NCBI GenBank assembly: GCA_010093605.1
Contig: MU004182.1
Coordinates: 1,907,195-1,971,194 of the forward strand
Source: Lophium mytilinum
Taxonomy: Eukaryota
DNA: 64,000 nucleotides
Direction: 5' to 3'
The notes under the pieces: model-generated
Told to the model about the DNA's origin: nothing
Database searches by the model: none
The model's input: only the letters and a program-made list of their open reading frames with translations
Made by a program: the position numbers and the translations under genes
Part shown: positions 36,410-55,615 of the stretch, piece after piece
Layout of the letters: each line of letters begins with the position of its first letter
Numbering within the stretch: position 1 is the first letter of the stretch

Positions 36410-37975
36410 ATGGGTAAATCTGAGAACGAGTACCACCCAGAGGAGGCAGATCACGCGTCTCCCTCCATTCCCTCAGATCCAGCGGCTTCAACAAGTCCTG
36501 CACCAGACGATTCTTTACAGAATGATCCCGACAGAATTGACCCTTATTACAACCCACATGAACTGGATGAGACTGGTCTCCCGGATTATTCCAAAAATGA
36601 CCCCCACGGCATCCAATCCATCATCCATTCCGCCTCAACCGGCTCCCTTAATATACCTATAATCGCCTACCCCACGGCCAAGCTCCACGACCATGACCTG
36701 GACCAATTCAAACTCTGCCGCGACATCGTAAACTCTTTTTTCTCTGCCATCACCAGCAAGAAAGACGAAGCTGTCGCCATGATGATCGAATCAAACCTCG
36801 TGACCGCCAACACGACCTCCATCAGGGGCGAAACGCCCCTCCTCGCCGCCGTACGCGTCGGAAATGTCCGTATGGTGCAAGAACTCCTCGACTTTGAAGC
36901 TGATGTTGATGCGTTCGGGACCACGCCGTATGAGGCTGGCGAGTCAGTAATATGGGATCAAGCGGACCAGTATCCAGGACTCATTCCTACCAACATACGC
37001 AAACGTACGCCACTCATGCTAGCAGCTGAGAAGGGAAACATCAACCTCGTTAAGCTCCTTGTGGATGTGTATCACGCCAACGATGCGCTGATCGCACCGG
37101 ATGGTGAACTCGCTCTACGGTTGGCCTCTGACAACGGGCATCGCGATATCGTTGAGTTTCTGCCGGGCCGTCGGGGCGGTGGGTGGCGGCGGTGGAAAGC
37201 GAAGCATGCGACAACGATGAATCGCGCGAAAAAGGCTATCAAGAATATAGCCTATTTCTTCAGAGTGGTGCTGTACAGTATCCCGAGATTTTTCATATGG
37301 AGCTGTCCGAAGCACCTGATCGTCCTTCCATTGAAAAACTCAGTAGTGTATTGCTGGAAGCATCGCGGAGAGTTCGGTGGTTGGTGTAAGCGACAGGCAA
37401 AAGCGATGCCCGAGCGCATTGCCCGAGGAGCCGCGAAAGTATGGAGAGGAATCAAGAAGGTTCCAGTAACGCTTTGGAAGATTGCGAAGGAGATCCCTGG
37501 AATCGTCAAGGACATTGCGAAGTGGGTGTGGGGCATTATCACAGGAATCCCAAAAGCACTCAAGGTGGCCACACTCTGGCTTTGGGATGGGGTGAAAAGT
37601 ATTGCTCATGGCATTGGATCCATACTTGGCCGTCTGGCCTCATTCCTCCACACGATTCTTTCTGGTATCGTGTCCTTCTTCCGTGATATTACGCTTAAAG
37701 ACATCTGGAATGGGTTTTGCTCCTTCCTCCATGCTGTCTTCATCGAGCTACCAGGAAAGATGGCGAAGTGGGTGGTGCGGTTTGGGGAAGTCTCATATAA
37801 GGTAATGAAAGCTTTATTTGGGTTTTGGGGTAAAGTGATTTGGTGGATTATTGTGGCATTGGGCGAAGTGGTGGTGTACGTCCCGACGAAGATCTGGGTC
37901 GTTCTTGCGAGTTGTGGGGAATCCCTCAAGAAGGCAATGATCGAACTACTCATATGGATCAACCCGAAGAGATAG
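36410..37975 (+). CDS. Ankyrin-repeat protein with a long Trp-rich amphipathic C-terminal region
   Basis: Ankyrin repeats GETPLLAAVRVGN, RTPLMLAAEKGN and ELALRLASDNGH. Single long ORF, first ATG at 36410. Confidence 0.85.
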   Translation: MGKSENEYHPEEADHASPSIPSDPAASTSPAPDDSLQNDPDRIDPYYNPHELDETGLPDYSKNDPHGIQSIIHSASTGSLNIPIIAYPTAKLHDHDLDQFKLCRDIVNSFFSAITSKKDEAVAMMIESNLVTANTTSIRGETPLLAAVRVGNVRMVQELLDFEADVDAFGTTPYEAGESVIWDQADQYPGLIPTNIRKRTPLMLAAEKGNINLVKLLVDVYHANDALIAPDGELALRLASDNGHRDIVEFLPGRRGGGWRRWKAKHATTMNRAKKAIKNIAYFFRVVLYSIPRFFIWSCPKHLIVLPLKNSVVYCWKHRGEFGGWCKRQAKAMPERIARGAAKVWRGIKKVPVTLWKIAKEIPGIVKDIAKWVWGIITGIPKALKVATLWLWDGVKSIAHGIGSILGRLASFLHTILSGIVSFFRDITLKDIWNGFCSFLHAVFIELPGKMAKWVVRFGEVSYKVMKALFGFWGKVIWWIIVALGEVVVYVPTKIWVVLASCGESLKKAMIELLIWINPKR

Positions 37976-38733
37976 GACGTCACCATAGACGTTTATACAC
38001 TCGGGCTGCCATTGCTCTGGAGTGCATCGATACAGTTCTCCGAACCTAGAAGAGATGAAATTTCATCGTTCTAAGCAACCGTAAAGCTGCTAGACCGTCT
38101 CAGAAAAAGGTTGGAGAGGGGGGAGGGGTACACTGACTGGAACTATCCTGCTTCACTACAACAGGAGTCGCAGTACCCCTTCCTTGACGGTTGCCAAAGG
38201 TGGCCCTGCAAGTTTCCTGATCAGGCAGACAAGAGTGTTGAGGCATCCCTGGACACGTGGAGCTTTCATTTCCATAGTGAGTGCGGTAAGCATACGACGG
38301 AGAGGCAGATAAGCGTGCGGGATAAAACAAGTAGCTCTGATTAATGCATTGCACGGCCTACATACTGTTCATCCTTCAATCCAACTCAAGCCCGTGGGGT
38401 TTGTAACATGAAACAATGGTGACCAACATCTTGGAAGACTTGGGCAGGATATTTTTGAAAAATTCTAGCTTGAGAGACTGAGACGGAGTTCGAAGACTAG
38501 AAACTGAAAAGCCTGATTATAAGTACGTCAGGCATTCACTTCTTAACTTTAGTAATATAGAGGCCTCGAAATATAGCTGACGTGAAGTCTTAAGTATGAC
38601 GTCCTAATCTAAGCTAGCAATTGAACGAGTCCAAGATTCAGTGCGGTCGGACTGGTGTGATCTCCCGCTGATTTCGAGCCCGCCTACATCAGCCTAGGCT
38701 ACATATGTACATTCATTTTTGGCAAATCGTAAA

Positions 38734-38894
38734 TCCGGTGTAGGCCAGTTGGTCAGACCGCGTCTTATAGCCTCAGCGACCATATTGTCGAGAGCCTGGC
38801 CACCTTGGAGTAGCGGCTCCAAGACGCCGGGTTAGCTGCAATGTGGTCGCTGACGTTATTAGACGAAACCCGTGTTCGATTCACGGCGCCGGAC
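38734..38894 (+). ncRNA. tRNA-like Pol III RNA with the anticodon loop replaced by a long hairpin
   Basis: Acceptor stem TCCGGTG/CGCCGGA. A-box-like TAGGCCAGTTGG and D arm. Stem CGTCT/AGACG, 4-nt variable loop AAAC, perfect T arm CCGTG-TTCGATT-CACGG (B box), then TTTTCTTTTT. Bases 38766-38860 fold as one long hairpin. Confidence 0.8.
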
Positions 38895-38896
38895 CA

Positions 38897-38906
38897 TTTT
38901 CTTTTT
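38897..38906 (+). terminator. Pol III oligo-dT terminator
   Basis: TTTTCTTTTT a few bases after the tRNA-like 3' end. Confidence 0.65.
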
Positions 38907-39609
38907 GCTATTTTCGACTCTGCTATGCCTAGTGTGAGTTTGAATAGGCCCGTGACCAAGATTGCGAAGACAGTATGTTAAAACGTGCATTCACTAGAAA
39001 TTTATCTGAAGACAGAATCGGAATACGAGGAAGGAAGAATGCTTGACCAGAAAAAGTGATACTTATATTACAGTTGAGAGCCGTGACGTTCGAAATGAAA
39101 GTAGAAGTGATATGAGGAAAAAGTTTGTCAACATTTGGGCTGCGGTCTTGCTCGGCAAAACTTTAACTGATTCCAGCGGAAAGCATGATGTCCCCGTGCA
39201 GATATGGAATGATTGACCTGGGGATAGATGATAGTTGAAAGCGTCTAGTGAAGATCCGCAAAGGGCAGAGTATCGTTCAGAAGACGTAGAGACGACGAAA
39301 CTCAGGTTGAGCTTTAAAAACACCCCATTGCCCATATATATGTAGGAAAGCCTTGTCCTACGGGTTGGAATAGAGTGGCTCCTCCTTAATAGACGCGCAT
39401 TGGAGTAGACCTCCGATACATAGCACGATGCTATAGTGCGGTGACAGATTGTCGTCGGCATAAGCTAGGAGGAAGTTCACCCCGCGGCTTTCCCGAGGTC
39501 TATAGCAACTTCATCAACTACATCTCAACTCAATCAAGCTCCTTTGCACCGCAACTATCGCGCAAGAATACCAATGGCGAGACGAAGACGATTTGAGATC
39601 TGAATCGCC

Positions 39610-43299: not shown

Positions 43300-46200
43300 G
43301 GGCTATAGTTTAGATTGCCTGTATCTTGGCGGCAAACATTTTACAATGCCTATAAACGCCTCCAGGACGCCAGATTAACACGCCTATACTAATTAAGGCC
43401 TAGTAACTAGTTCCTAGGCCTATTTAAGTATTAGCTCTATTATCTTATATTATAGAGGTATTTTTAGCTACTATATAACTCTATATAGGCCTTAGCTATA
43501 GTATTAAGGTGTAATTTCTTATATACTTTATATACCGCACACTACTATTATTATTATAATAGCTTTTAGGCCTCTATATAAGCTTATAAATTAAACTAGG
43601 CTTAATAGGTTTATTTTTAATAGATAGCCGCCTCTAAGGCCCTTCTAGAGGCGCTTAATAAGCGCTAAATTGCCTAAAATAGTAATAGATATATATATTA
43701 AGCTATAGAGAATATAGCTAAGCTACTATACTATAGAAAGCTATAGAGAAGTAGATTTAAAGGCTTTATAGGCCTTATCTAGTTAGAAGAGCTATAGACT
43801 AACTTTTACTATAGCTATACTAAGAATCTATCTACCTATATTTCTATACTATATTAGTAATAAAAAAGTAATAAAAATTAATAGATTTTAATACTATAAA
43901 GCCGTAAGAACTTACTATATAGAGGCCCTTTCTATACCTTTTTAAAGGCCTTAATTTATTCTTTCTATCTTATATAGCCTCTTATATAGCCTCTTATATA
44001 GCCTTACTATTATTATCTATAGCCCTGCTATTATCTATATACTTACTATTATCTATAGCCTTTAATTCTGCCCTAAATTAAGCTATTCCTAGCCTAAATT
44101 AACTACTTTTTATCGCCTGCCTTATTGCCGCGATGTAATTAGCTAGTGTTTCTAATATTAGTAATTAATTTAGCTATTAGAATAAAATCTAACTTCTTAT
44201 CTATAATATAGCTATTAAGGAATAATAGGCTTCTTATATGCATGCTAGTAAGAATAGCCGCCTAGACCTCCGCTACTATTTAATAGAGGATTATAACTAG
44301 CGTCTCTATACTATAAGAAAGAAGAATAAGAAGTTAATTACTATAGTAAAGGTTAATAACCTCTACTATTATATTAGGGCTCTACTAGTTGCCCGGGCGC
44401 CTTATACTTATATTAAGTACCTACTAGAGGTGCTACCTTAATTTCTATATATTAATAGAGTAACACTAATAGTAACTATCTAGTCTATAGTTGCAATATA
44501 CTATAAAGGGCCTATTAAGAAGGCGCAGGCTTAAAAGGTTTAGAAGATTCTTACTAGTAAGAAGATAGTTACTATATAAGAGGACTACTAGAGAATTTCT
44601 AAGTTCCTCTAGCGCCTTTATAAGGCTAACCTAGGTATTATAATAGACCTTATAATATAGGGTAATATCTTTCTACGCATCTTTATCTACTCTAAGGAGA
44701 GTAACCTCTTTTTTAGTAATAGTCTTAGATAGATAGAACTTAATAGAATATACTAGCGGAATAGCTATAAAGGCGTTATCCTAATAGCTATTAGGCGTAA
44801 CTAGAATAATAAGATCTATCCGCTAGTATAGAGTATTATAGAGAATAAAAGTAATAAGATATAGGCGTAGTTCTATATAAATATAATTAGGGCTATAGTA
44901 GTTCTAAGGGCTAGCTAGTAGACTATCTACTTATAAGTATTATTTTCTTTTTTAAGAATATCTATGTATTTATTTATTATAGAAAGAACGCGCTAAACGC
45001 GTTAATTTTAGTAAGAAATTACGTATTTATAAGCAAGTTCCTATTATAATAAATAAGTATAGATATTAATAAAAATTATAATAGCCCCCTTTTAATTTCT
45101 ATACGCCTATTTATAATAGTATCTATACCTCTTAATTTCCTTCTATATACTTCTTAACGCCGCAGTTAATTTCTATACCTATTTTTATAGTCTCTATTAA
45201 CTATACTATTCTCTATAGTAGATTATTTAAAAATCTATCTACTTATACTATTTTTTTTATAGTAATTATAATAAAGGCCTAATTAATACTATTACTATCT
45301 ACTTTCTAGCCTACTACGCTATATACTATTGCTAGCACCTTATAGAGAATATTAAGAAGGCCTATAGAGTTACTAGCTTACGCCTATTCTATATAGTTAC
45401 TTAATATACTAATAATATATTATTTTAGTAGAATATAGCTAAAATAGCTATTTATAGCCTAGGCGCTGTAGCCTATATACTTACCTAGAACTCTAGAAAG
45501 TAGCTATTAAAAGACTACCCTACTAGGCGCTTTAGGTCTATTACTAGCGGCGTAAGTAAGTTCTAGAATAAGGTTATCTATAATAAGCGCTTAAAGTTAA
45601 TACTCTTACTTATTAGCTTTATCTAGTACTAATATATTATAACTTATACTAAGTACTACGCTAAGATTATAAAGCTTAGTACCTCTATCTAGCGCCTTTA
45701 TAATTTTAATAGCTTTAAGTACTTTTTTTAGTATAGCTAGAAGCTCTATATATAGGTATAGAGGGAGGGCGCTATATACTACTACTATTTAAATATATTT
45801 ACTAACCTAGATAGCGCCTTTCTCTTAATATATATTCTCTACTACTATATAGTAAAGGTCTATATAGTATGCCTTAACCTATATAATTATATATATAAAG
45901 AATTCTAGAATTATAACTTTTCTTACTACTATACTATTACTATTATTAGCGCCCTTAGGTAGAAGATAGAGAGATAGGTATAATTCTTCTATTAAATTAC
46001 CTTATAGCTAAGGTTCTATAAGGCCGTACGCCTACCGCTAGTATACCTAGTTAAGCGCTATTCTTAGCCTATAAGAACTAAGGATATTATTTTATTAAAT
46101 ACCTGCCTAGCGCCGCCTAAGAAGATGCTTTAAGGTCTAGTGCAGCGCAATTAATAGCGTGTAGGTAATAGCTATAGCCCTGTAAGAGTAGAGGGCTAGG

Positions 46201-47157
46201 CGTACTTAGTATATAGCCTAAGGGGTTATAATAAATAGAATAAATAGAAGTATAGAGAATATATAATAATTTAATATATTTTAATACTTTTATATAGGAA
46301 TTAAGCCCTTTTTTATAGTCTCTAGGCCTATTTTCCCTTAGTTTAGTATATAGGCCTTTATTAGTTACTTCTTATATATTTTTAGTTAATTTTTAATTAA
46401 TTATATTAACTACTTCTACTAGTAGAACGCCGGCTATAATCTAAGCCTAATTTAAAGGCTATTACTAACTACCTAATTAGATTAGTTCTACTTAGCAAGC
46501 TAATTAGATTATATAGAAACTTAATACTACCCTACTTATTTATTCCCTAATTAAAATCTATTACCGCTAAGTATTCTTACTTACTATTTTTATACTTTTA
46601 TTTAAAAATTTATAACTTTATTAATTTCTATACTAAATTATACTAAATTCTAGCTTAATAATTCTTAGACTTAGCGCTATCCTTTACTAAAAGGTAAGAA
46701 GTAAAAAGAAAGCAACCTTACTAGAAATTAAACCTATAAAAAGGTCCCTTATCTATAGTAGAGCCGGGTTAGTGCCTATTATTATAACTATAGACGCAGT
46801 AGTAGATACTAACCTAATACCGCCCTACTAACTACTAAACTATACTAGAACTATTAAAGAATAGCTAAAATTATTAATTATATATACCCTAAAATAATAT
46901 TATAATAATAATAGGGGTGCAGCATATAAAGCATATAAGAAATTACACCTTAATACTATAGCTAAGGCCTATATAGAGTTATATAGTAGCTAAAAACACC
47001 TCTATAATATAAGATAATAGAGCTAATACTTAAATAGGCCTAGAAACTAGTTACTAGGCCTTAATTAGTATAGGCGTGTTAATCTAGCGTCCCGGAGGCG
47101 TTTATAGGTATTGTAAAACGTTTACTGCCAAGATACAGGCAATCTAAACTGTAGCCC
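43300..47157 (+). mobile_element. Mutator-like (MULE) DNA transposon, full length, RIP-inactivated
   Basis: 241-bp TIRs (43300-43540 and 46917-47157, starting GGGCTA.AGTTTAGATTGCC) and a perfect 9-bp TSD GGCTGGGAC (43291-43299, 47158-47166). De-RIP'd MULE motifs: AIGxDWNNEIYPLVW..VENES.ETWAWF at about 44785-44875, SDCDKGL...CCQHL.EN at about 45260-45350, SWIM-like CxC...PCCH at about 45880-45945. Confidence 0.93.
44932..45247. mobile_element. Probable solo LTR (316 bp) inserted in the MULE transposase
   Basis: Ends TATAAG...CTTATA (RIP'd TGTAAG...CTTACA), flanked by CTACT/CTATT 5-bp direct repeats. Lies between two normally adjacent MULE motifs. Confidence 0.6.
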
Positions 47158-48083
47158 GGCTGGGACGGGATGGCTGCAAGGGGTAGGGGCTTCATGCGGT
47201 GAAGCGCGGGTTTGCTGGGCTTCTGAGTGGTGGGATGTGCCTCGGTGTTTTGGGTTTGCGTCTGGTTTGGGAAGAGGGGAGAGGAGGTTGGGAGGGTGGT
47301 CATGGGGGATGTGACGTATCTGGTCGGCAGATGGTTCTGTGTGTGTTTGCGATAATGGGGTGTCTTTTGGTGTGGTTGTCTTATGGTTTGGGGTATGGGG
47401 TAAGTTAGGGGGTGAGTATGAGCAGATTGACTAGGTTCAAGCCCTTAAGTGGTAAGTGTGAGAACGAACATGGTCCTGGAATGAAGGTTGAATATAGTGA
47501 CAGATTTTGTATCTTAGCGGTAATCTGAGTGCCTGATGTTGGTACTGTGACTTGATAATACCTACTGTTGTGTCTCGTTTATGGACTTCTAATGTTTACC
47601 ACCCTAGCCAATCCGCCCGAAAAGCCCTTTATATTCGCAGTCTTTTCTTTCATCACCTTTATAGTATAATAGATCTAGTTGGAACTCAGGAAACATGACG
47701 CTACAGCTGAAAAGAAAGGGAGGTCCGAAGAAACACACAAACAAATAGCTCCAAGAAAGCACGAACAAGATCGAAAATCCTAGAAAACCTTAGCAAGTCA
47801 TTCACACCTATCCTCCTCATCTCTCTCCAAGAATCAAGTATAGCCGAGATGTCTCAAGAAACTCAAAGCGCTGCAAAGATCATTCTCCACCATCCCAGCA
47901 TCGCAAACAACACCCCTTCTCCACACTATGAGCTCCTCATCGAAAATTCCACCCACAAGCTCGTAGTTGTATATCTACACCACTACCGCTGCTGAGCGGA
48001 CCACATCCCGCGCACACTCACCTTCAACACGCTTCGACCACCAACTCAACACCTGAACCAAACCCACAACTCTGAAACCCAAC

Positions 48084-50900: not shown

Positions 50901-51593
50901 GAGGGAGGCGTGAAAGGATGAGCAAGAAGAGCCTAAAATCTTTGGGATGAGGACGTTCGGAGATCAGTAGTTCCGCCCCGGTTTTGTTCCCTATAAGCCA
51001 ATCAGAGCGGTGCAGCCTGAATTAAACTGGCCAGTCATGTTCGTAATCTACCAGGACTAGCCCTCTATTTTCACCCTTTTCCTGCCCCATACAAAGGTAT
51101 AGAGGAGATTCTAAGCTCTTCCCGTTCAGCAAGTATCAAGACCGCCAAACATGACCGCTCCTCTAGCAGCCAAACTTCGAACGAAGCCTAAAAGTTTTTG
51201 GGGATAAAGGCTAATCCCTTGACTTGCCTCCTCTTTTGAAGGTTAAAGCACAAACAGCAGCCAGTATGGTTCTTCAGTCGGAGCACAAGTATGCGTCATG
51301 TACCCAAACTTGGAGTCTTCAGTATAAGCAGAGAGAAATTGCAAAGATGTGAAATGGAGAAGTAGTCACCCATTTAAATGAACTAGATACGCAACCCGTA
51401 GACCGCATCCCCACATTACGGATCATAATTAGCTTAGAGGCGCAGACATTACATCCGCCCCTAGGTGCTGAAAGGAAGAAAGAGACAGCCCTTATGCGGC
51501 ACTGTGACTACAAGAACGCCCGCTAGCTCCTACGCCCATCCCTGTATTCCCCATGCCTTCACCATATTGCCATGCTAACCCACCCCAACTCTC

Positions 51594-54500
51594 TCACCCT
51601 CGGATCGGAACATTATTCGGTTGATACTTTCGCAGCTAAAATCGAAGTCAGCATCGCTCCCTCCCACGCGTCCATCAAGAGAACTCACATCTAAGCTGAC
51701 AACCCTACTCGTCATCTTCGCCTGATCCCGCATTACGCCTACCAGCCCCTCACTCTCTTGGAACAGCGCCGCCTTCAAGCTAATCACAATGAACTGCATC
51801 CCGGGCCCTGCATGCTTCTGCACATACCGCGCCACACGCGCGATGTTCACATTATCCAGCGCCGCATCGATCTCGTCCAGCACGAAGAACGGGCTTGGCT
51901 GGAAACTATGGATCGCGAACAGCAGCGCCAGCGCCGCGATCGTCTTCTCACCTCCCGACAGCTCGTTCATCTCGCGGTAGCGCTTGAGCGGGGGCATGGC
52001 GTTGTACGTCAGACCGCCGAGGTAGGGCTCATCGGAGTCGGCCATGTCGATGTTGGCGCGGCCGCCGTCAGGCGCGAGGTGGTCGGTTGTGAGTTCTTTG
52101 TAGGTGACCTTGATCTGCTCCTGGATATGCGTCAAGGCCTTGTTGAAAAGCTCGAGGCGATGCTCCTGGACCTCCTCGAAGAGGGTTTTGGCGCGGAGAG
52201 CGGCGGATTTGGCGGACTCGTAGTCTTTCTCGGCGGTTTTGCCGGTGGAGGTTGTGGCTTCGAGGCGTTCGGCGGCCTTCATATCGACGTTCATCTTCTC
52301 AAGTTGGGAAGTCATGGTTTCGATTTTCTCTTTGAGCTGTTCGCCGCATTCGGGCGACTCGTTCTGTAAGGGTGGTTAGTTAGTAAGGAACTGGAAGTCG
52401 CGAGAAAGGCAATAATCATACCTCCTGCAGCTTCTCGTCAAGTTCGCTATAGTCTAGCTCAATGCCGTAGTCCGGCACTTCTGCCACTTGCATGGTTGCA
52501 TCAGGGTCTTGATCTTCATCGTCCACGTCCATTGCATCAGGGTCGTCCTCCTGTATATGATCATCTAAAGGTAGCGAGTTGAGATCTTTAGACCCGTCTT
52601 CCAGTGGCAAGTCGATCTCTTTGATCCTGCATTCGCGCAGCAGACTGTGCACAGCCCTAGATTCGGTCTTTACGACACCTTCTAGCTCTTTGACCTCTTT
52701 CATGATCCCTTCAACGGCCTTGTTGCGCTTGCGGAGTTGTTTTCGCTGTTCTTCCACAATTTCTACCTTTTCCGCCGACTTCTGTTTTTGAGTGTCGAGA
52801 GACTCCTGGAGTAACTCCAGCTCGGCTTTTGCTACATCAAGCCTCTCTTGGATGCTTTCCTTCTCAAGTTCAGCCTTTGCAATCTCGTCCTGATCCTTCT
52901 TGATTCGGGTCTCGAGACTTTTGATCCGATCGTTGTAGTGGCCCAGCTTCACTGTGTCGGCAGACAGATAGTTCTCGAGAGTCTGGAGCTGATTCTGAAA
53001 CTCCAATCTCTTTTCATCTGCCTTCCGATTGAGTGAGCCCTGCCGAGATTCATAGTCCCTGATGTTTTCGTAACCCAGACGCTGACACCAGGAACCAAAA
53101 AGCTCATCCTCCACTTCGGCGATGGCGTCTTGAAACGTCCTTAGGTTGCTCCTTAGCTCCTCCAAAGCCCGATTCTCTTGGTCATACTTCGGTTGGTTTT
53201 CGTGGAGCTGGTTCGCGAAGAATTTGAGGGCATTCCTGTTGCTTTGAATGTTTCGGTCTAGAGCGTTCGATTCGTCTTGTAACTCTCTGAGACGATTCGA
53301 TAACTGTGCGACCTCGCTCCTCGCTTTCGACCGTTGTGTCACTTCTTGGTCGAACTGGCTGTCCAGTTGCTTGATTCTTTCGAATAATCTCGCTATCTTG
53401 GCATCGATATTCGCGACACTATTGTCGTCCTCCCCCCATTTCTTGGACGCGTTCCTGTCGTCGACTTGTCCTCCTTCTAGGGTCTCTGCCCTGAATACGG
53501 TGCCTTCCAAATCTACGGCCTTTCCACCAACTTTGTGGACATATTGCATATCCTTGGCGATATTGCGGGTATCGCAAATAATGGAGTTACCACAAGCCCA
53601 TTGCATCGCTCGCTCATAAGCGGTATCGTATTCGATGGTATCAATCGCTAAGCGCACACCCTTATACTTGCCCTTGAGATTAGTATTGGCCGACGAGACC
53701 TGCACGGTGTCCAGAGGGATGAACGTGATCGCAGGATGTTGCTGGTCCTTGACGTAGTTGATGCATTCGTTGGCAATGCTGACGTTCTTGACTACCACGG
53801 CATCTACGTTTTTCCCGAAAACAACACCGATAGCTCGTTGGTACTTGGTTTCCTTGGGCTTGCATAGCAATTGGATCGTACCGTGTACGTCGCCACTATG
53901 CGTTTGCTTCAACTTCCTGACCATTTCTCGAAGGTTCTTTTCTTTCTGGGACTCTCTGCGGGTAGAATCAGCCCGATTTTTTTCCTCCAGTGACAGTCTT
54001 AACGAGTCTTCCGAAAGCCTTTTATTTTTTTTCATGTCTTCAATACTCGAGTCGAGCTTGGTGTTTGCAATGTCTTGTTTCTTCATCTCCACTTGTACCT
54101 GCTTCATCTCTGTCTTGATGGCTGTCTGGCGATCAACTAACTCTGCAATCTCCTCCTCGAGCTTTGTGACTTGGGACTGGGGGCTTTCAAGCTTGCTCTT
54201 TAGATTCTTGACAGTGTCCTCGGTAGTGTTGAGTCGTCGGGTGAGATCGTTCACCTGTCCCTTGTCTGCAGATGTCCGCTTCGTGACCTCGCCCTTCAGT
54301 CTGTTATACTCCTGGCGATCTGCTTCGGTCGGTTCTCGGCCCTCACGCTGATTTAGCTGCTTCCAATCAGCCTCCCACTTTTCCTGAGCCTTCTTAACTT
54401 TGCCAATTTCCTTCTTGTAGTGCTCGATAGTCCCTGTTTGTTTATCGCGATCGGCCTTGATCTTGAGAATCTGTGTCTGGAGGTCTTGTACCCTTTTGGA

Positions 54501-55615
54501 GGTATGTTCTATCTTCAAGCTGACAGGATATATGGTCTTCTTGGCCTCTTCGATGTCGTGCTCCTTGCCCCTGATTGCTCTCTCTGTCTTCGAAGCCTCG
54601 CGTGTAGCCTGTGCTTGCTCTCGCTTTGCTTCCTCGACTTTCTGGTGATACTTTTCCAAGCCGCGCCTATGCTCTTTGAGCTCGTCCTGGTGCTTTTGGA
54701 TCTCCTCGCCAGACTGCTGAATGACGCGCTCGTGATGGAATAGCCGCCACAAATAGTGGTCGACAACAGCCTGGTCGCGCTCGGCAGCTTTGCGCTCGTA
54801 CTCCTCGGCTATTTCCTTTTCCTGCCTCAGATGTCTGATGTCGGCATTGACCTGACGCCGTTGGCCGAGTTTGTCGTTCTGAGTCTCGAGTGCTTCCGCC
54901 GCCTCCCTCTTCAGCTTATCGTATTCACTCTTGTACTCCAGGCTGCCTGATATCTGCTCGATTAGGGTGGTTAGGGCTGTGGGGGACTGCGAGGCCACGG
55001 CTTCGACGTCCCCCTGGAAGACAAGGAAGTTTCGAGCTTTGATCAAGATGGCTTCTTCCTCGAGGGCTTGATTGTACTCCTTGGCAGTGACGATGCGATT
55101 GTTGATGCGGTATTCGCTTGTGCCAGCGGTGGTGACGGTCCGTTTCCACTTCTGCTCATCGCCAGCCTCGTCCTCGTAGACGGCCATGACCCATGCCGAC
55201 TGCGGAGTGTTCCGCTGGCTGCTTGTCTGCGACCCTGCTTCGCCGCCATCCCCGTTTGTAGCTTCGGTAGCAGTGCCGTCGGCGTTGATTTTGGAGGCGC
55301 TAAGAACATGAGGGCGGTAGATGAGTTCGCGAAGATGCGTAGAGCGTAGATGGCTTGACTTGATACCTAGGACGAAGGAAATTGCATCCATGCTGCATGC
55401 GCCAGTAAGAATAGCTCTGTGCGTGTGTGGTAGGGTACTCACGAGTTTGACTTGCCAGAGCCATTGGGACCGATGATGGAGGTGAAGTACGAGTCGCCAA
55501 AGAGCAAGACATGGTGGCCGCGATAGGACTTGAAGTCTGTGGGTTGTGAGCGGAGGCTTCATATCGGAGTGGGGTGCGACATACCCTTGACTTCAAGACG
55601 GACGAGTTTGCCCAT
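51594..55615 (-). CDS. SMC1: Cohesin subunit SMC1
   Basis: MGKLVRLEVK|DFKSYRG, IIGPNGSGKSN (Walker A), MDAISFVLGIKSSHLRS, ARNFLVFQGDVE, coiled coils and hinge, LSGGEKT signature, PFFVLDEIDAALD. Several introns. Confidence 0.97.

What the first reader, a model, noticed from the sequence alone, without database searches (positions are those of the whole stretch)
38734..38906. tRNA scaffold carrying a ~50-bp pre-miRNA-like hairpin in place of the anticodon loop
Seen in sequence: a nearly intact tRNA body (7-bp acceptor stem, D arm with one mismatch, 5-bp CGTCT/AGACG stem, 4-nt variable loop, perfect T arm, oligo-dT terminator). The anticodon stem continues in register as one long helix: 38766-38788 pairs with 38838-38860 with only U.U and C.C mismatches, 38793-38800 pairs with 38826-38833, and 38804-38811 pairs with 38816-38823, closing an AGCG loop. 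Several pairs are G.U, which favours a functional RNA structure over a DNA palindrome. Canonical splicing at 37/38 would give an aberrant loop (A33, TAG, C37) on a short-variable-arm body, which is not a plausible decoding tRNA-Leu. Established: A/B boxes drive Pol III, RNase P/Z trim tRNA-shaped ends, and some Neurospora milRNAs are Pol III or tRNA-precursor derived. Inference: a non-decoding tRNA-like RNA that uses the tRNA fold as promoter and processing scaffold to deliver a long hairpin, either a Dicer substrate or a structured ncRNA.
Basis: partly seen in the sequence, partly recalled or inferred. Interest (0 to 1): 0.88.

Follow-up and report, generated by a model that had tools for sequence, protein, structure and literature searches.

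The report
tRNA-shaped gene carrying long hairpin
A fungal gene looks like a normal tRNA gene, except that the part that should read the genetic code is replaced by a long RNA hairpin marked like a tRNA intron; it cannot act as a normal tRNA and may be either a carrier for that hairpin or a disabled tRNA gene.

Summary
At 38734-38896 (+) there is a tRNA-shaped gene. It has a 7-bp acceptor stem, a D arm with one C.A mismatch, a 5-bp anticodon stem, a 4-nt variable loop, a perfect T arm, the invariant bases and a T4/T5 run. Between the anticodon-stem strands, 95 nt extend the stem into a 43-bp hairpin (z -9 to -11.6). No excision leaves a normal anticodon loop (0 of 8). Rfam and default ARAGORN find nothing.

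New here: the only two mismatches in rungs 6-28 lie beside the canonical 37/38 splice junctions. The insert therefore reads best as an 88-nt tRNA intron. A transposon is less likely, because there is no target duplication and no second copy.

Neutral decay of a palindrome reaches the observed stability in 5-26% of simulations.

I could obtain no relatives and no RNA data, so function is untested.

- **Best reading (0.40):** a non-decoding tRNA-derived Pol III gene whose hairpin intron is the product.
- **Close rival (0.35):** a disabled tRNA gene.
- **Closest known:** Drosophila tric31905.

The parts
38700..38719 (+). AT-rich stretch 15-34 nt upstream of the tRNA 5' end; a possible TATA-like upstream element
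   Evidence: Read directly (tacatatgtacattcatttt). A promoter role is inference only. It is not a consensus TATA box.
38734..38740 (+). Acceptor stem, 5' strand (tRNA positions 1-7)
   Evidence: Pairs with 38887-38893, 7 bp including one U.G.
38741..38752 (+). A-box-like segment (positions 8-19: U8, A14, G18, G19 present)
   Evidence: Read. The A-box consensus is recalled, not tested by a tool.
38743..38759 (+). D arm: stem GGCC/GACC with a C.A mismatch at positions 12/23, and a 9-nt loop
   Evidence: ARAGORN draws the same arm. The MFE fold prefers an alternative 4-bp D hairpin.
38761..38765 (+). Anticodon stem, 5' strand (positions 27-31)
   Evidence: Pairs with 38861-38865, 5 Watson-Crick pairs.
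38766..38771 (+). What would be anticodon-loop positions 32-37 (T, A, T, A, G, C). Positions 33-37 are paired with the 3' end of the insert.
   Evidence: Pairs 38767-38771 with 38855-38859. P(unpaired) is 0.001-0.137 for these and 0.999 for 38766.
38772..38859 (+). The 88-nt insert read as a canonical 37/38 intron. It forms a hairpin of 16 + 1 + 8 + 8 pairs plus a 5-nt 3' segment paired to the loop.
   Evidence: The junction nucleotides 38772 and 38860 are the only unpaired positions in rungs 6-28.
38812..38815 (+). Apical tetraloop AGCG
   Evidence: P(unpaired) is 1.000 for all four bases.
38860..38860 (+). Position 38, unpaired (U.U with 38766), directly 3' of the canonical 3' splice junction
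   Evidence: P(unpaired) 0.999.
38861..38865 (+). Anticodon stem, 3' strand (positions 39-43)
38866..38869 (+). 4-nt variable loop AAAC
38870..38886 (+). T arm (CCGTG / TTCGATT / CACGG); it includes the B-box-like segment 38873-38883
   Evidence: The B-box consensus is recalled.
38887..38894 (+). Acceptor stem 3' strand (38887-38893) and discriminator C (38894)
38897..38906 (+). Oligo-T runs (TTTT, C, TTTTT); candidate Pol III terminator
   Evidence: The terminator role is inferred from established Pol III biology.

Best explanation
This is a single-copy gene derived from a nuclear tRNA gene of a dothideomycete fungus. It no longer encodes a decoding tRNA.

Shown:
- The tRNA body is complete.
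- An 88-nt insert sits at the canonical intron position (after position 37) and extends the anticodon stem into a 43-bp hairpin.
- Two single-nucleotide mismatches expose exactly the two canonical splice junctions.
- No excision of the insert leaves a usable anticodon loop.

Inferred course:
1. RNA polymerase III starts from the internal A and B boxes and stops at the T-runs. The transcript is about 165-170 nt.
2. RNase P and RNase Z trim the ends, because the acceptor/T-arm domain is intact.
3. The tRNA splicing endonuclease measures from the body and cuts at 38771|38772 and 38859|38860.
4. This releases an 88-nt hairpin with about 33 pairs, a 1-nt 5' end and a 6-nt 3' tail.
5. That hairpin, not the joined exons, is the product that matters. 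It could be a substrate for RNase III-type enzymes giving small RNAs, or a stable structured RNA.

On this reading the tRNA part serves as promoter and processing handle. That the hairpin is the selected product is the weakest step. It rests only on anatomy.
For: - The body is intact. Three stems are perfect and the D stem has one mismatch. U8, A14, G18, G19, A21, T54, T55, C56 and A58 are present, as is the G15/C48 pair.
- ARAGORN scores the locus 108.7-112.6, against at most 98.6 for the 49 background calls in the window.
- The hairpin is very stable: z -11.57, 0 of 200 shuffles as good. It folds 16.3 kcal/mol better on the tRNA strand than on the opposite strand.
- The only two mismatches in rungs 6-28 lie directly 3' of the canonical junctions, each with P(unpaired) 0.999. 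The chance of that placement is 1/253, or 1/22 if the 32/38 mismatch is taken as given.
- Eukaryotic splice sites are expected in single-stranded spots next to helices at a fixed distance from the body (PMC4090602 section 5; PMC10485636 passages).
- Positions 33 and 37 are A and C, which is abnormal for a decoder. Both are Watson-Crick paired to the insert, so the helix is kept at the cost of the loop.
- If the hairpin began as a perfect palindrome, the body has changed far less than the hairpin arms (joint p about 0.009).
- The insert length of 88 nt is within the reported eukaryotic range of 6-133 nt.
- There are precedents for a long, paired tRNA intron or tRNA-borne hairpin that yields small RNAs. 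Drosophila tric31905 has a 113-nt conserved double-stranded intron with a miRNA-like small-RNA pattern (PMC4536317 passages). Engineered tRNA/pre-miRNA chimeras are processed in human cells (PMC4402540 passages).
Against: - There is no evidence of transcription, of splicing or of small RNAs. No run on record as RNA was listed.
- No relative could be examined, so there is no covariation and no sign of conservation.
- The stability and strand bias of the hairpin are within what neutral decay of a DNA palindrome gives: 5-26% and 5-13% of simulations.
- G.U against A.C is 6:0 only if the 3x2 loop is set aside. It is 6:2 (p 0.145) otherwise.
- The 3' junction lacks the usual 3-nt bulge, and position 32 does not pair with the third-last insert nucleotide. 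Known rules therefore do not predict efficient cleavage.
- The D stem has a C.A mismatch, as a decaying copy might.
- No target-like complementarity was found in the 64-kb window beyond chance.
- The locus is a single copy in one species, and most such oddities are not functional.
Confidence: 0.4

Rival explanations
1. It is a disabled tRNA gene with no selected function. On this view an intron-bearing tRNA gene lost its anticodon loop when the intron and loop were made more self-complementary at the DNA level. Possible routes are template switching at the imperfect inverted repeat, or stepwise drift. Other copies of the tRNA cover decoding. Because the promoter is internal, the gene may still give an RNA, which would be degraded as an aberrant tRNA.
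For: - No canonical loop is recoverable (0 of 8).
- The D stem has a C.A mismatch.
- Rfam's tRNA model does not match the locus or its halves.
- Neutral decay of a palindrome reproduces the stability and strand bias in 5-26% and 5-13% of simulations.
- There are no conservation or expression data.
- Base rate: most tRNA-like loci with broken anticodon loops are pseudogenes (general knowledge, not tested here).
Against: - If the hairpin arms have diverged 15% per site since a perfect palindrome, an unconstrained body should show more damage. P is 0.039 for the stems and 0.009 jointly with the invariant bases.
- The two lower-helix mismatches coincide with the splice junctions (1/253 to 1/22). 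Random decay does not predict that.
- Both arguments fail if the hairpin was never perfect, or if gene conversion from sister tRNA genes keeps the body intact. Neither could be tested.
Confidence: 0.35
2. It is a real decoding tRNA gene with an unusually long (88-nt) canonical intron. After splicing, the tRNA would be charged and used in translation despite its odd loop.
For: - The insert is at the canonical place, and its length is within the known eukaryotic range of 6-133 nt.
- The junctions are exposed.
- ARAGORN accepts the in-silico spliced form as tRNA-Leu(tag) with score 112.6.
Against: - The spliced loop has A at 33 and C at 37. Decoding tRNAs have U33 and a purine at 37 (established knowledge).
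- A UAG anticodon would mean leucine, but the body has a 4-nt variable loop instead of the long variable arm of leucine tRNAs (established knowledge).
- ARAGORN's own intron-mode solution, Tyr(ata), needs a U.U pair in the stem, no position 26 and a 19-nt unstructured variable region.
Confidence: 0.07
3. It is a small foldback or MITE-type transposon inserted into the anticodon loop of a tRNA gene.
For: The insert is a long imperfect inverted repeat (40-nt arms, 75% complementary at the DNA level). That is the usual shape of such elements.
Against: - There is no target-site duplication. The 7 nt on either side (38766-38772 and 38854-38860) are inverted complements, not direct repeats. Removing candidate TA or TTA duplications leaves loops of only 4-6 nt (read).
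- There is no other copy in the window.
- Only one contig per run lies on 38300-39300 at 80% likeness or more in X1 and X2, with none laid only partly.
- The palindrome is in register with the anticodon stem and pairs with the loop nucleotides.
Confidence: 0.08
4. It is a tRNA-like processing signal inside a Pol II transcript of the upstream ankyrin gene. RNase P or RNase Z would cut there, in the manner of the mascRNA element of MALAT1 (recalled).
For: - The locus lies 759 nt downstream of the ankyrin ORF, on the same strand.
- One contig of run X3 runs colinearly from upstream through 38300-38878. Whether X3 is RNA is only the tool's guess.
Against: - Nothing shows that X3 is RNA.
- The gene has its own internal promoter-like boxes and T-runs.
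- A 3' UTR of about 900 nt would be long for a fungus (general knowledge).
Confidence: 0.04

Closest known systems
Drosophila tRNA-Tyr gene CR31905 and its 113-nt intron tric31905 (Lu et al. 2015, PMC4536317; passages read)
   Same: Both have an unusually long tRNA intron at the canonical site, predicted to be largely double-stranded. The intron, not only the tRNA, is a product. Small RNAs from tric31905 show a miRNA-like pattern.
   Different: - CR31905 has a normal anticodon loop and makes tRNA-Tyr. Here the joined exons cannot decode.
- tric31905 is circularised by the RtcB pathway. Fungi are reported to lack RtcB homologues and to use Trl1 (PMC4090602 passage).
- The structure of tric31905 is supported by covariation among Drosophila species. 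Here no relatives could be examined.
Canonical eukaryotic intron-containing pre-tRNA (PMC4090602 section 5; PMC10485636 passages)
   Same: The insert sits between positions 37 and 38. An anticodon-intron helix stacks on the anticodon stem. The junctions lie at unpaired nucleotides. The length is within 6-133 nt.
   Different: - There is no 3-nt bulge at the 3' junction, and no pair between position 32 and the third-last intron nucleotide.
- The helix is 43 bp long and almost uninterrupted.
- The spliced loop has A33 and C37.
Neurospora crassa milR-4 (Yang et al. 2013, PMC3547838; passages read)
   Same: A fungal small-RNA precursor that uses tRNA genes, Pol III and a tRNA-processing enzyme (RNase Z).
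   Different: milR-4 lies between two complete tRNA-Ala genes and is freed by RNase Z at a tRNA 3' end. Here the hairpin is inside one tRNA body, at the anticodon.
Murine gammaherpesvirus 68 tRNA-miRNA units (known to me only through the discussion passage of PMC3547838)
   Same: A tRNA-like Pol III unit serves as promoter and processing handle for pre-miRNA hairpins.
   Different: The hairpins follow the tRNA-like part and are released by RNase Z. It is a viral system, not a cellular one.
miR-1983 from pre-tRNA-Ile (review PMC6912820, passage read)
   Same: A tRNA precursor is diverted to Dicer and Argonaute.
   Different: There a normal tRNA gene makes the miRNA as a side product. According to the review, the precursor has low affinity for La and is exported by XPO-5. 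That it refolds into an alternative hairpin is my recollection, not from the passage. Here the hairpin coexists with the cloverleaf, and decoding is lost.
Engineered tRNA/pre-miRNA chimeras on the 'tRNA scaffold' (Chen et al. 2015, PMC4402540; passages read)
   Same: A tRNA body carries a pre-miRNA hairpin. In human cells the small RNA is released and the scaffold is degraded to fragments.
   Different: These are man-made and produced in E. coli. That the insert replaces the anticodon arm is my recollection of the scaffold design; the passages read do not state it. The authors say the nucleases involved are undefined.
[quoted passage not shown]
   Same: Excised fungal tRNA introns act as regulators of mRNAs by complementarity.
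   Different: Those come from normal decoding tRNA genes with short introns. No long hairpin is involved.

Membership tests
Decoding eukaryotic tRNA gene with canonical intron | Cloverleaf body with invariant and semi-invariant bases | tested here: met
   Three stems are perfect and the D stem has one mismatch. U8, A14, G18, G19, A21, T54, T55, C56 and A58 are present. ARAGORN scores 108.7-112.6 against a background of at most 98.6.
Decoding eukaryotic tRNA gene with canonical intron | Match to the Rfam tRNA covariance model | tested here: not met
   There was no hit at gathering score or at E <= 10 on 38600-39050. There was also none on the separate halves. The 95-nt insert may itself prevent a match, so this is weak evidence.
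Decoding eukaryotic tRNA gene with canonical intron | After excision, a 7-nt anticodon loop with U33 and a purine at 37 | tested here: not met
   0 of 8 possible 7-nt loops qualify. Canonical excision gives A33 and C37.
Decoding eukaryotic tRNA gene with canonical intron | 3' splice site in a bulge, closed by the conserved pair between position 32 and the intron (A-I pair) | tested here: not met
   In the MFE and ensemble folds only one nucleotide (38860) is unpaired at the 3' junction. Position 32 (38766) faces position 38 and pairs with nothing. The rule comes from PMC10485636.
Decoding eukaryotic tRNA gene with canonical intron | Body consistent with the isotype named by the anticodon (UAG = leucine needs a long variable arm) | tested here: not met
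   The variable loop is 4 nt. The class II rule for leucine tRNAs is established knowledge, recalled.
Archaeal-type bulge-helix-bulge intron | A 4-bp helix flanked by two 3-nt bulges | tested here: not met
   A 5-bp helix is flanked by two 1x1 mismatches, with no bulges.
MITE / foldback transposon insertion | Target-site duplication flanking the element | tested here: not met
   The flanks are inverted complements, not direct repeats.
MITE / foldback transposon insertion | Several copies in the genome | tested here: not met
   There is no second copy in the window. One contig per run was laid for X1 and X2 at 80% likeness or more, with none laid only partly. Copies under 80% alike, or too short for the aligner, would be missed.
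tRNA-derived SINE | High copy number; a tRNA-related head followed by an unrelated body and tail | tested here: not met
   The locus is single copy. The tRNA 3' half follows the insert, and the unit ends in T-runs.
Fungal microRNA-like RNA (milRNA) precursor | Stable stem-loop precursor | tested here: met
   43 pairs, -66.5 kcal/mol, z -11.57.
Fungal microRNA-like RNA (milRNA) precursor | Discrete 19-25-nt reads from one arm; dependence on Dicer, QDE-2 or Argonaute | not testable with these tools
   No run on record as RNA was listed.
tricRNA-type long structured tRNA intron | Intron at 37/38 in a gene with an intact tRNA body, with a long double-stranded intron | tested here: met
tricRNA-type long structured tRNA intron | Structure conserved with compensatory changes; intron RNA detected (circular junction reads) | not testable with these tools
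   No relatives' DNA and no RNA reads could be obtained.

The most novel reading that the evidence does not exclude
This is a cellular tRNA gene that has given up decoding. It is kept only as a Pol III promoter and RNase P / RNase Z / splicing-endonuclease handle that delivers an 88-nt pre-miRNA-like hairpin intron. It would be a fungal 'tRNA-intron mirtron', and the natural counterpart of the engineered tRNA/pre-miRNA carriers.
Probability: 0.3. Interest if true: 0.8.

Novelty: new variant of a known kind. Interest (0 to 1): 0.45.

Why it matters
Known tRNA-linked small-RNA sources fall into two groups. In one, the hairpin sits beside a tRNA (Neurospora milR-4, the herpesvirus tRNA-miRNA units). 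In the other, it comes as a side product of a working tRNA gene (Drosophila tric31905, miR-1983, yeast free introns). If the hairpin here is made and released, this locus would be the end point of that series: a gene in which the tRNA function has been sacrificed and only the carrier role remains.

It would also show that the tRNA splicing endonuclease of a filamentous fungus can release a pre-miRNA-like hairpin without Drosha-type processing.

If the locus is instead a dead tRNA gene, it is still a clear example of how an intron and an anticodon loop can collapse into one long helix. In that case it deserves no more than a note in a tRNA annotation.

Tried and rejected
- **Own genome:** not held. 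Paralogous tRNA genes, other long-intron tRNAs and further copies of the hairpin could not be searched directly.
- **Earlier notes of the scan:** none on this genome and no look-alike stretch. Word searches returned only archaeal, phage, bacterial, protist and yeast cases that do not bear on this locus.
- **Sequencing runs:** no RNA holder was listed. Three runs were laid.
  - X1 and X2 come from the same sample and may be the source. They are identical to the window.
  - X3 is identical over what it covers: 38300-38878 and 38950-39300.
  - No variants were seen, so there is no covariation to use.
  - X3 has no cover over 38879-38949, and its two contigs have mean depths of 128 and 625. I considered whether this means X3 is RNA ending near the T-runs. 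X3's RNA status is only the tool's guess and contig depth is a flat mean, so I draw nothing from it.
- **Metagenome scan:** the 20-mer spanning the T loop to the acceptor 3' strand gave 3 of 3 hits inside GC-rich sequence with no tRNA shape. I judged this by eye, and they are apparently bacterial.
- **Rfam on the separate halves** (38715-38771 and 38860-38915): nothing at E <= 10.
- **ARAGORN's own solution:** tRNA-Tyr(ata) with a 74-nt intron. Rejected because it needs a U.U pair in the anticodon stem, omits position 26 and leaves a 19-nt unstructured variable region.
- **Registers shifted by 1 or 2 nt:** these would give loops resembling Ile(UAU) or Tyr(AUA). I worked them by hand and rejected them, because they break the D stem or shorten the variable loop to 3 nt.
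- **Bulge-helix-bulge refolding around the junctions:** rejected. The required 4-bp helix would have two mismatches (by hand).
- **C/D-box snoRNA in the intron:** a CUGA is present (38850-38853) but there is no C box (by eye).
- **Target search:** 21-mers of the hairpin against the rest of the window, both strands, up to 4 mismatches. There was 1 hit with 4 mismatches, against 0-6 hits in each of 10 shuffles.
- **Literature for a described equivalent:** searches found no report of a fungal tRNA-like gene with a hairpin at the anticodon. These are word searches of an open-access subset only.
Full report
**What is there**

The window is fungal nuclear DNA. Blocks of 25-30% G+C (1-21 kb and 44-47.5 kb) alternate with about 50% G+C gene-bearing DNA. 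The ankyrin-repeat gene 759 nt upstream of the finding (36410-37972) has its best named relative in Mytilinidion resinicola, at 78% identity. That species is a dothideomycete of the order Mytilinidiales. The finding lies in an intergenic stretch of about 1.85 kb between two + strand genes.

The sequence contains a complete tRNA body on the + strand:
- Acceptor stem: 38734-38740 with 38887-38893, 7 bp including one U.G.
- U8 and A9.
- D stem GGCC/GACC, with a C.A mismatch at positions 12/23.
- D loop with A14, G15, G18, G19 and A21.
- G26.
- Anticodon stem CGTCT/AGACG.
- Variable loop AAAC, whose last base can pair with G15.
- T arm CCGTG/TTCGATT/CACGG.
- Discriminator C.
- After two more bases, TTTT, C, TTTTT.

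The segments 38741-38752 and 38873-38883 resemble the A and B boxes. Those consensus sequences are recalled, not tested by a tool.

Between the two strands of the anticodon stem lie 95 nt instead of 7.

Yes.
- RNA folding of 38734-38896 gives the acceptor and T arms plus one long arm, at -89.5 kcal/mol. Shuffles give -53.2 +/- 4.0, z is -9.07, and 0 of 200 shuffles fold as well.
- The arm alone (38761-38865) folds at -66.5 kcal/mol, with z -11.57 and 0 of 200 shuffles as good.
- The arm has 43 pairs, 6 of them G.U, and closes on the tetraloop AGCG.
- Default ARAGORN finds no tRNA in the window.
- Rfam finds nothing at gathering score or at E <= 10 around the locus. It also finds nothing on the two halves given separately.
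- With introns allowed, ARAGORN reports one gene in 64 kb, this one. Its solution is a forced tRNA-Tyr(ata), with a U.U pair in the stem, no position 26 and a 19-nt unstructured variable region. I do not accept that solution.
- As a control, relaxing ARAGORN's threshold gives 50 calls. The other 49 score 85.2-98.6 and this locus scores 108.7.
- Deleting 38772-38859 in silico gives 112.6.

So the body is clearly tRNA-like, and the locus is unique in the window.

**It cannot decode**

I enumerated the eight ways of leaving a 7-nt loop between the stem strands. None has U at 33 and a purine at 37 (0 of 8). Canonical excision after position 37 leaves U-A-U-A-G-C-U. A UAG anticodon would mean leucine, but the variable loop is 4 nt and not the long arm of leucine tRNAs (established knowledge). 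I tried registers shifted by one or two bases by hand. They break the D stem or the variable loop.

**The insert is laid out like a tRNA intron**

This is the main new point.
- Counting rungs from the base of the anticodon stem, rungs 1-5 are the stem.
- Rung 6 is a U.U mismatch (38766/38860, which are positions 32 and 38).
- Rungs 7-11 are five pairs between loop positions 33-37 and the last five insert bases.
- Rung 12 is a C.C mismatch (38772/38854).
- Rungs 13-28 are sixteen uninterrupted pairs.

The canonical junctions are 38771|38772 and 38859|38860. The nucleotide directly 3' of each junction is one of these mismatched bases, with P(unpaired) 0.999. Their neighbours are paired, with P(unpaired) 0.001-0.138. 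These are the only two mismatches in rungs 6-28. The chance that two mismatches fall on just these rungs is 1/253. It is 1/22 if the 32/38 mismatch is taken as given.

Reviews describe eukaryotic splice sites as lying in single-stranded spots next to helices, at a fixed distance from the tRNA body. They describe the anticodon-intron helix as stacking on the anticodon stem (PMC4090602 section 5; PMC10485636 passages). The reported length range of eukaryotic tRNA introns is 6-133 nt, and 88 nt fits within it.

Two things do not fit the known rules. There is no 3-nt bulge at the 3' junction. There is also no pair between position 32 and the third-last intron base. It is not a bulge-helix-bulge motif either.

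**It is not a transposon and not a repeat**
- The seven bases on either side of the perfect 16-bp core are inverted complements of each other, not direct repeats. Removing candidate TA or TTA duplications leaves loops of 4-6 nt (read).
- BLAST of the locus against the window finds no second copy.
- In the two runs of the probable source sample, only one contig each (of 129,617 and 76,484 records) lies on 38300-39300 at 80% likeness or more, and none is laid only partly. Copies less than 80% alike, or very short matches, would be missed.

**RNA structure or DNA palindrome?**

The + strand does fold 16.3 kcal/mol better than the - strand. There are 6 G.U pairs, against 0 A.C mismatches if the 3x2 internal loop is left out. 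If that loop is aligned as there are 2 A.C mismatches. The p value is 0.016 or 0.145.

To test the argument I simulated perfect palindromes built from either arm. I gave them 13 arm differences at three transition shares, with 400 runs for each setting.
- 5-26% reach the observed + strand energy.
- 5-13% reach the observed strand asymmetry.

The argument is therefore weak on its own.

A second argument cuts the other way. If the hairpin began perfect, its arms have diverged by about 0.153 per site. At that rate the body should have changed more. P(no more than 2 of 21 stem columns altered) is 0.039. P(9 unpaired invariant bases kept) is 0.224. The joint value is 0.009. This argument fails if the hairpin was never perfect, or if gene conversion from sister tRNA genes repairs the body. 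Neither could be tested.

A third point: A33 and C37, the very bases that spoil the loop, are Watson-Crick paired with the insert. The helix has been favoured over the loop, whether by selection or by DNA-level correction of an imperfect inverted repeat.

**What could not be obtained**
- No genome is held for the window.
- The scan's earlier notes have nothing on this genome or on similar sequence.
All are identical to the window where they cover it, so they give neither variation nor expression.
- The one metagenome scan, for the 3' 20-mer, returned 3 of 3 hits in GC-rich sequence with no tRNA shape. I judged this by eye, and they are apparently bacterial.
- No 21-mer of the hairpin has a target-like match elsewhere in the window beyond chance.

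Conservation, transcription, splicing and dicing are therefore all untested.

**Best explanation and rivals**

| Reading | Probability | Comment |
|---|---|---|
| tRNA-derived, non-decoding Pol III gene whose splice-marked 88-nt hairpin intron is the product, with the tRNA part serving as promoter and processing handle | 0.40 | The anatomy is shown. Transcription, end trimming, endonuclease cutting and the use of the hairpin are inferred. |
| Disabled tRNA gene with no selected function | 0.35 | Needs no new biology. It is compatible with the simulation, but it does not predict the placement of the mismatches or the clean body. |
| Genuine decoding tRNA | 0.07 | Unlikely because of A33, C37 and the short variable loop. 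|
| Foldback transposon | 0.08 | Unlikely because there is no target duplication and no second copy. |
| Processing signal in the upstream gene's transcript | 0.04 | Rests only on a contig of a run whose RNA nature is a guess. |

**Comparison with what is known**

The closest case is the Drosophila tRNA-Tyr gene CR31905. Its 113-nt intron is highly conserved and predicted to be double-stranded. It is released as a stable RNA (tric31905) and gives small RNAs in a miRNA-like pattern (PMC4536317, passages). That gene still makes a working tRNA, and its intron is circularised by a ligase that fungi are reported to lack.

Other relatives in kind:
- Neurospora milR-4 lies between two tRNA-Ala genes and is freed by RNase Z (PMC3547838).
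- The herpesvirus tRNA-miRNA units are known to me only as cited in that paper.
- miR-1983 comes from pre-tRNA-Ile (PMC6912820).
- Yeast free tRNA introns act as regulators (only the listing seen).
- Engineered tRNA/pre-miRNA chimeras are processed to small RNAs in human cells (PMC4402540).

My nine word searches of the open-access library found no report of a fungal tRNA-like gene that has lost its anticodon loop to a hairpin. That is a limited search and does not prove absence.

**Verdict**

If the hairpin is used, this is a new variant of a known kind: a long structured tRNA intron, or a tRNA-linked hairpin precursor. If it is not used, it is a tidy pseudogene. Interest is 0.45. The anatomy is unusual and gives a clear, cheap experiment, but nothing yet shows that the RNA exists or is conserved.

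Noticed in passing
window 1-21000 and 44000-47500: These are long blocks of 25-30% G+C with strong local GC skew (down to -0.33), set against about 50% G+C elsewhere. They look like the AT-rich, repeat-derived isochores of fungi with repeat-induced point mutation. At a relaxed threshold ARAGORN makes many spurious tRNA calls there.
   Followed up: no
window 52416-55592 (- strand): This is a 1058-aa open frame rich in Lys/Glu coiled-coil sequence. A further 266-aa frame at 51575-52375 ends in an ABC-ATPase-like tail, so together they look like an SMC-type protein gene. It explains the AT skew of -0.27 over 52-56 kb. The naming is by eye only.
   Followed up: partly
window 38300-39300, run X3: Run X3 is labelled as a different organism (B) from the probable source (A), yet it is identical to the window over 38300-38878 and 38950-39300. 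Its two contigs have mean depths of 128 and 625. Such uneven depth would be odd for genomic DNA and might mean the run is RNA.
   Followed up: no
window 36410-37972 (+ strand): This ankyrin-repeat gene has a C-terminal half rich in W, K, I and G that looks like repeated amphipathic or membrane segments. It has 139 relatives at E <= 0.001 among the 8000 candidates scored. The named ones are from Ascomycota and some Agaricomycetes. The window's own catalogued protein (P0001) covers only 80% of my reading frame, so the gene model differs at one end.
   Followed up: no
window 38630-38690: Just upstream of the tRNA-like gene there is a short inverted repeat (GTCC...GGAC) and a 'GATTTCGAGCCCGCC' stretch faintly reminiscent of a T arm. 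ARAGORN at a very relaxed threshold gives only low-scoring calls there, at most 79.0. I see no second tRNA.
   Followed up: partly
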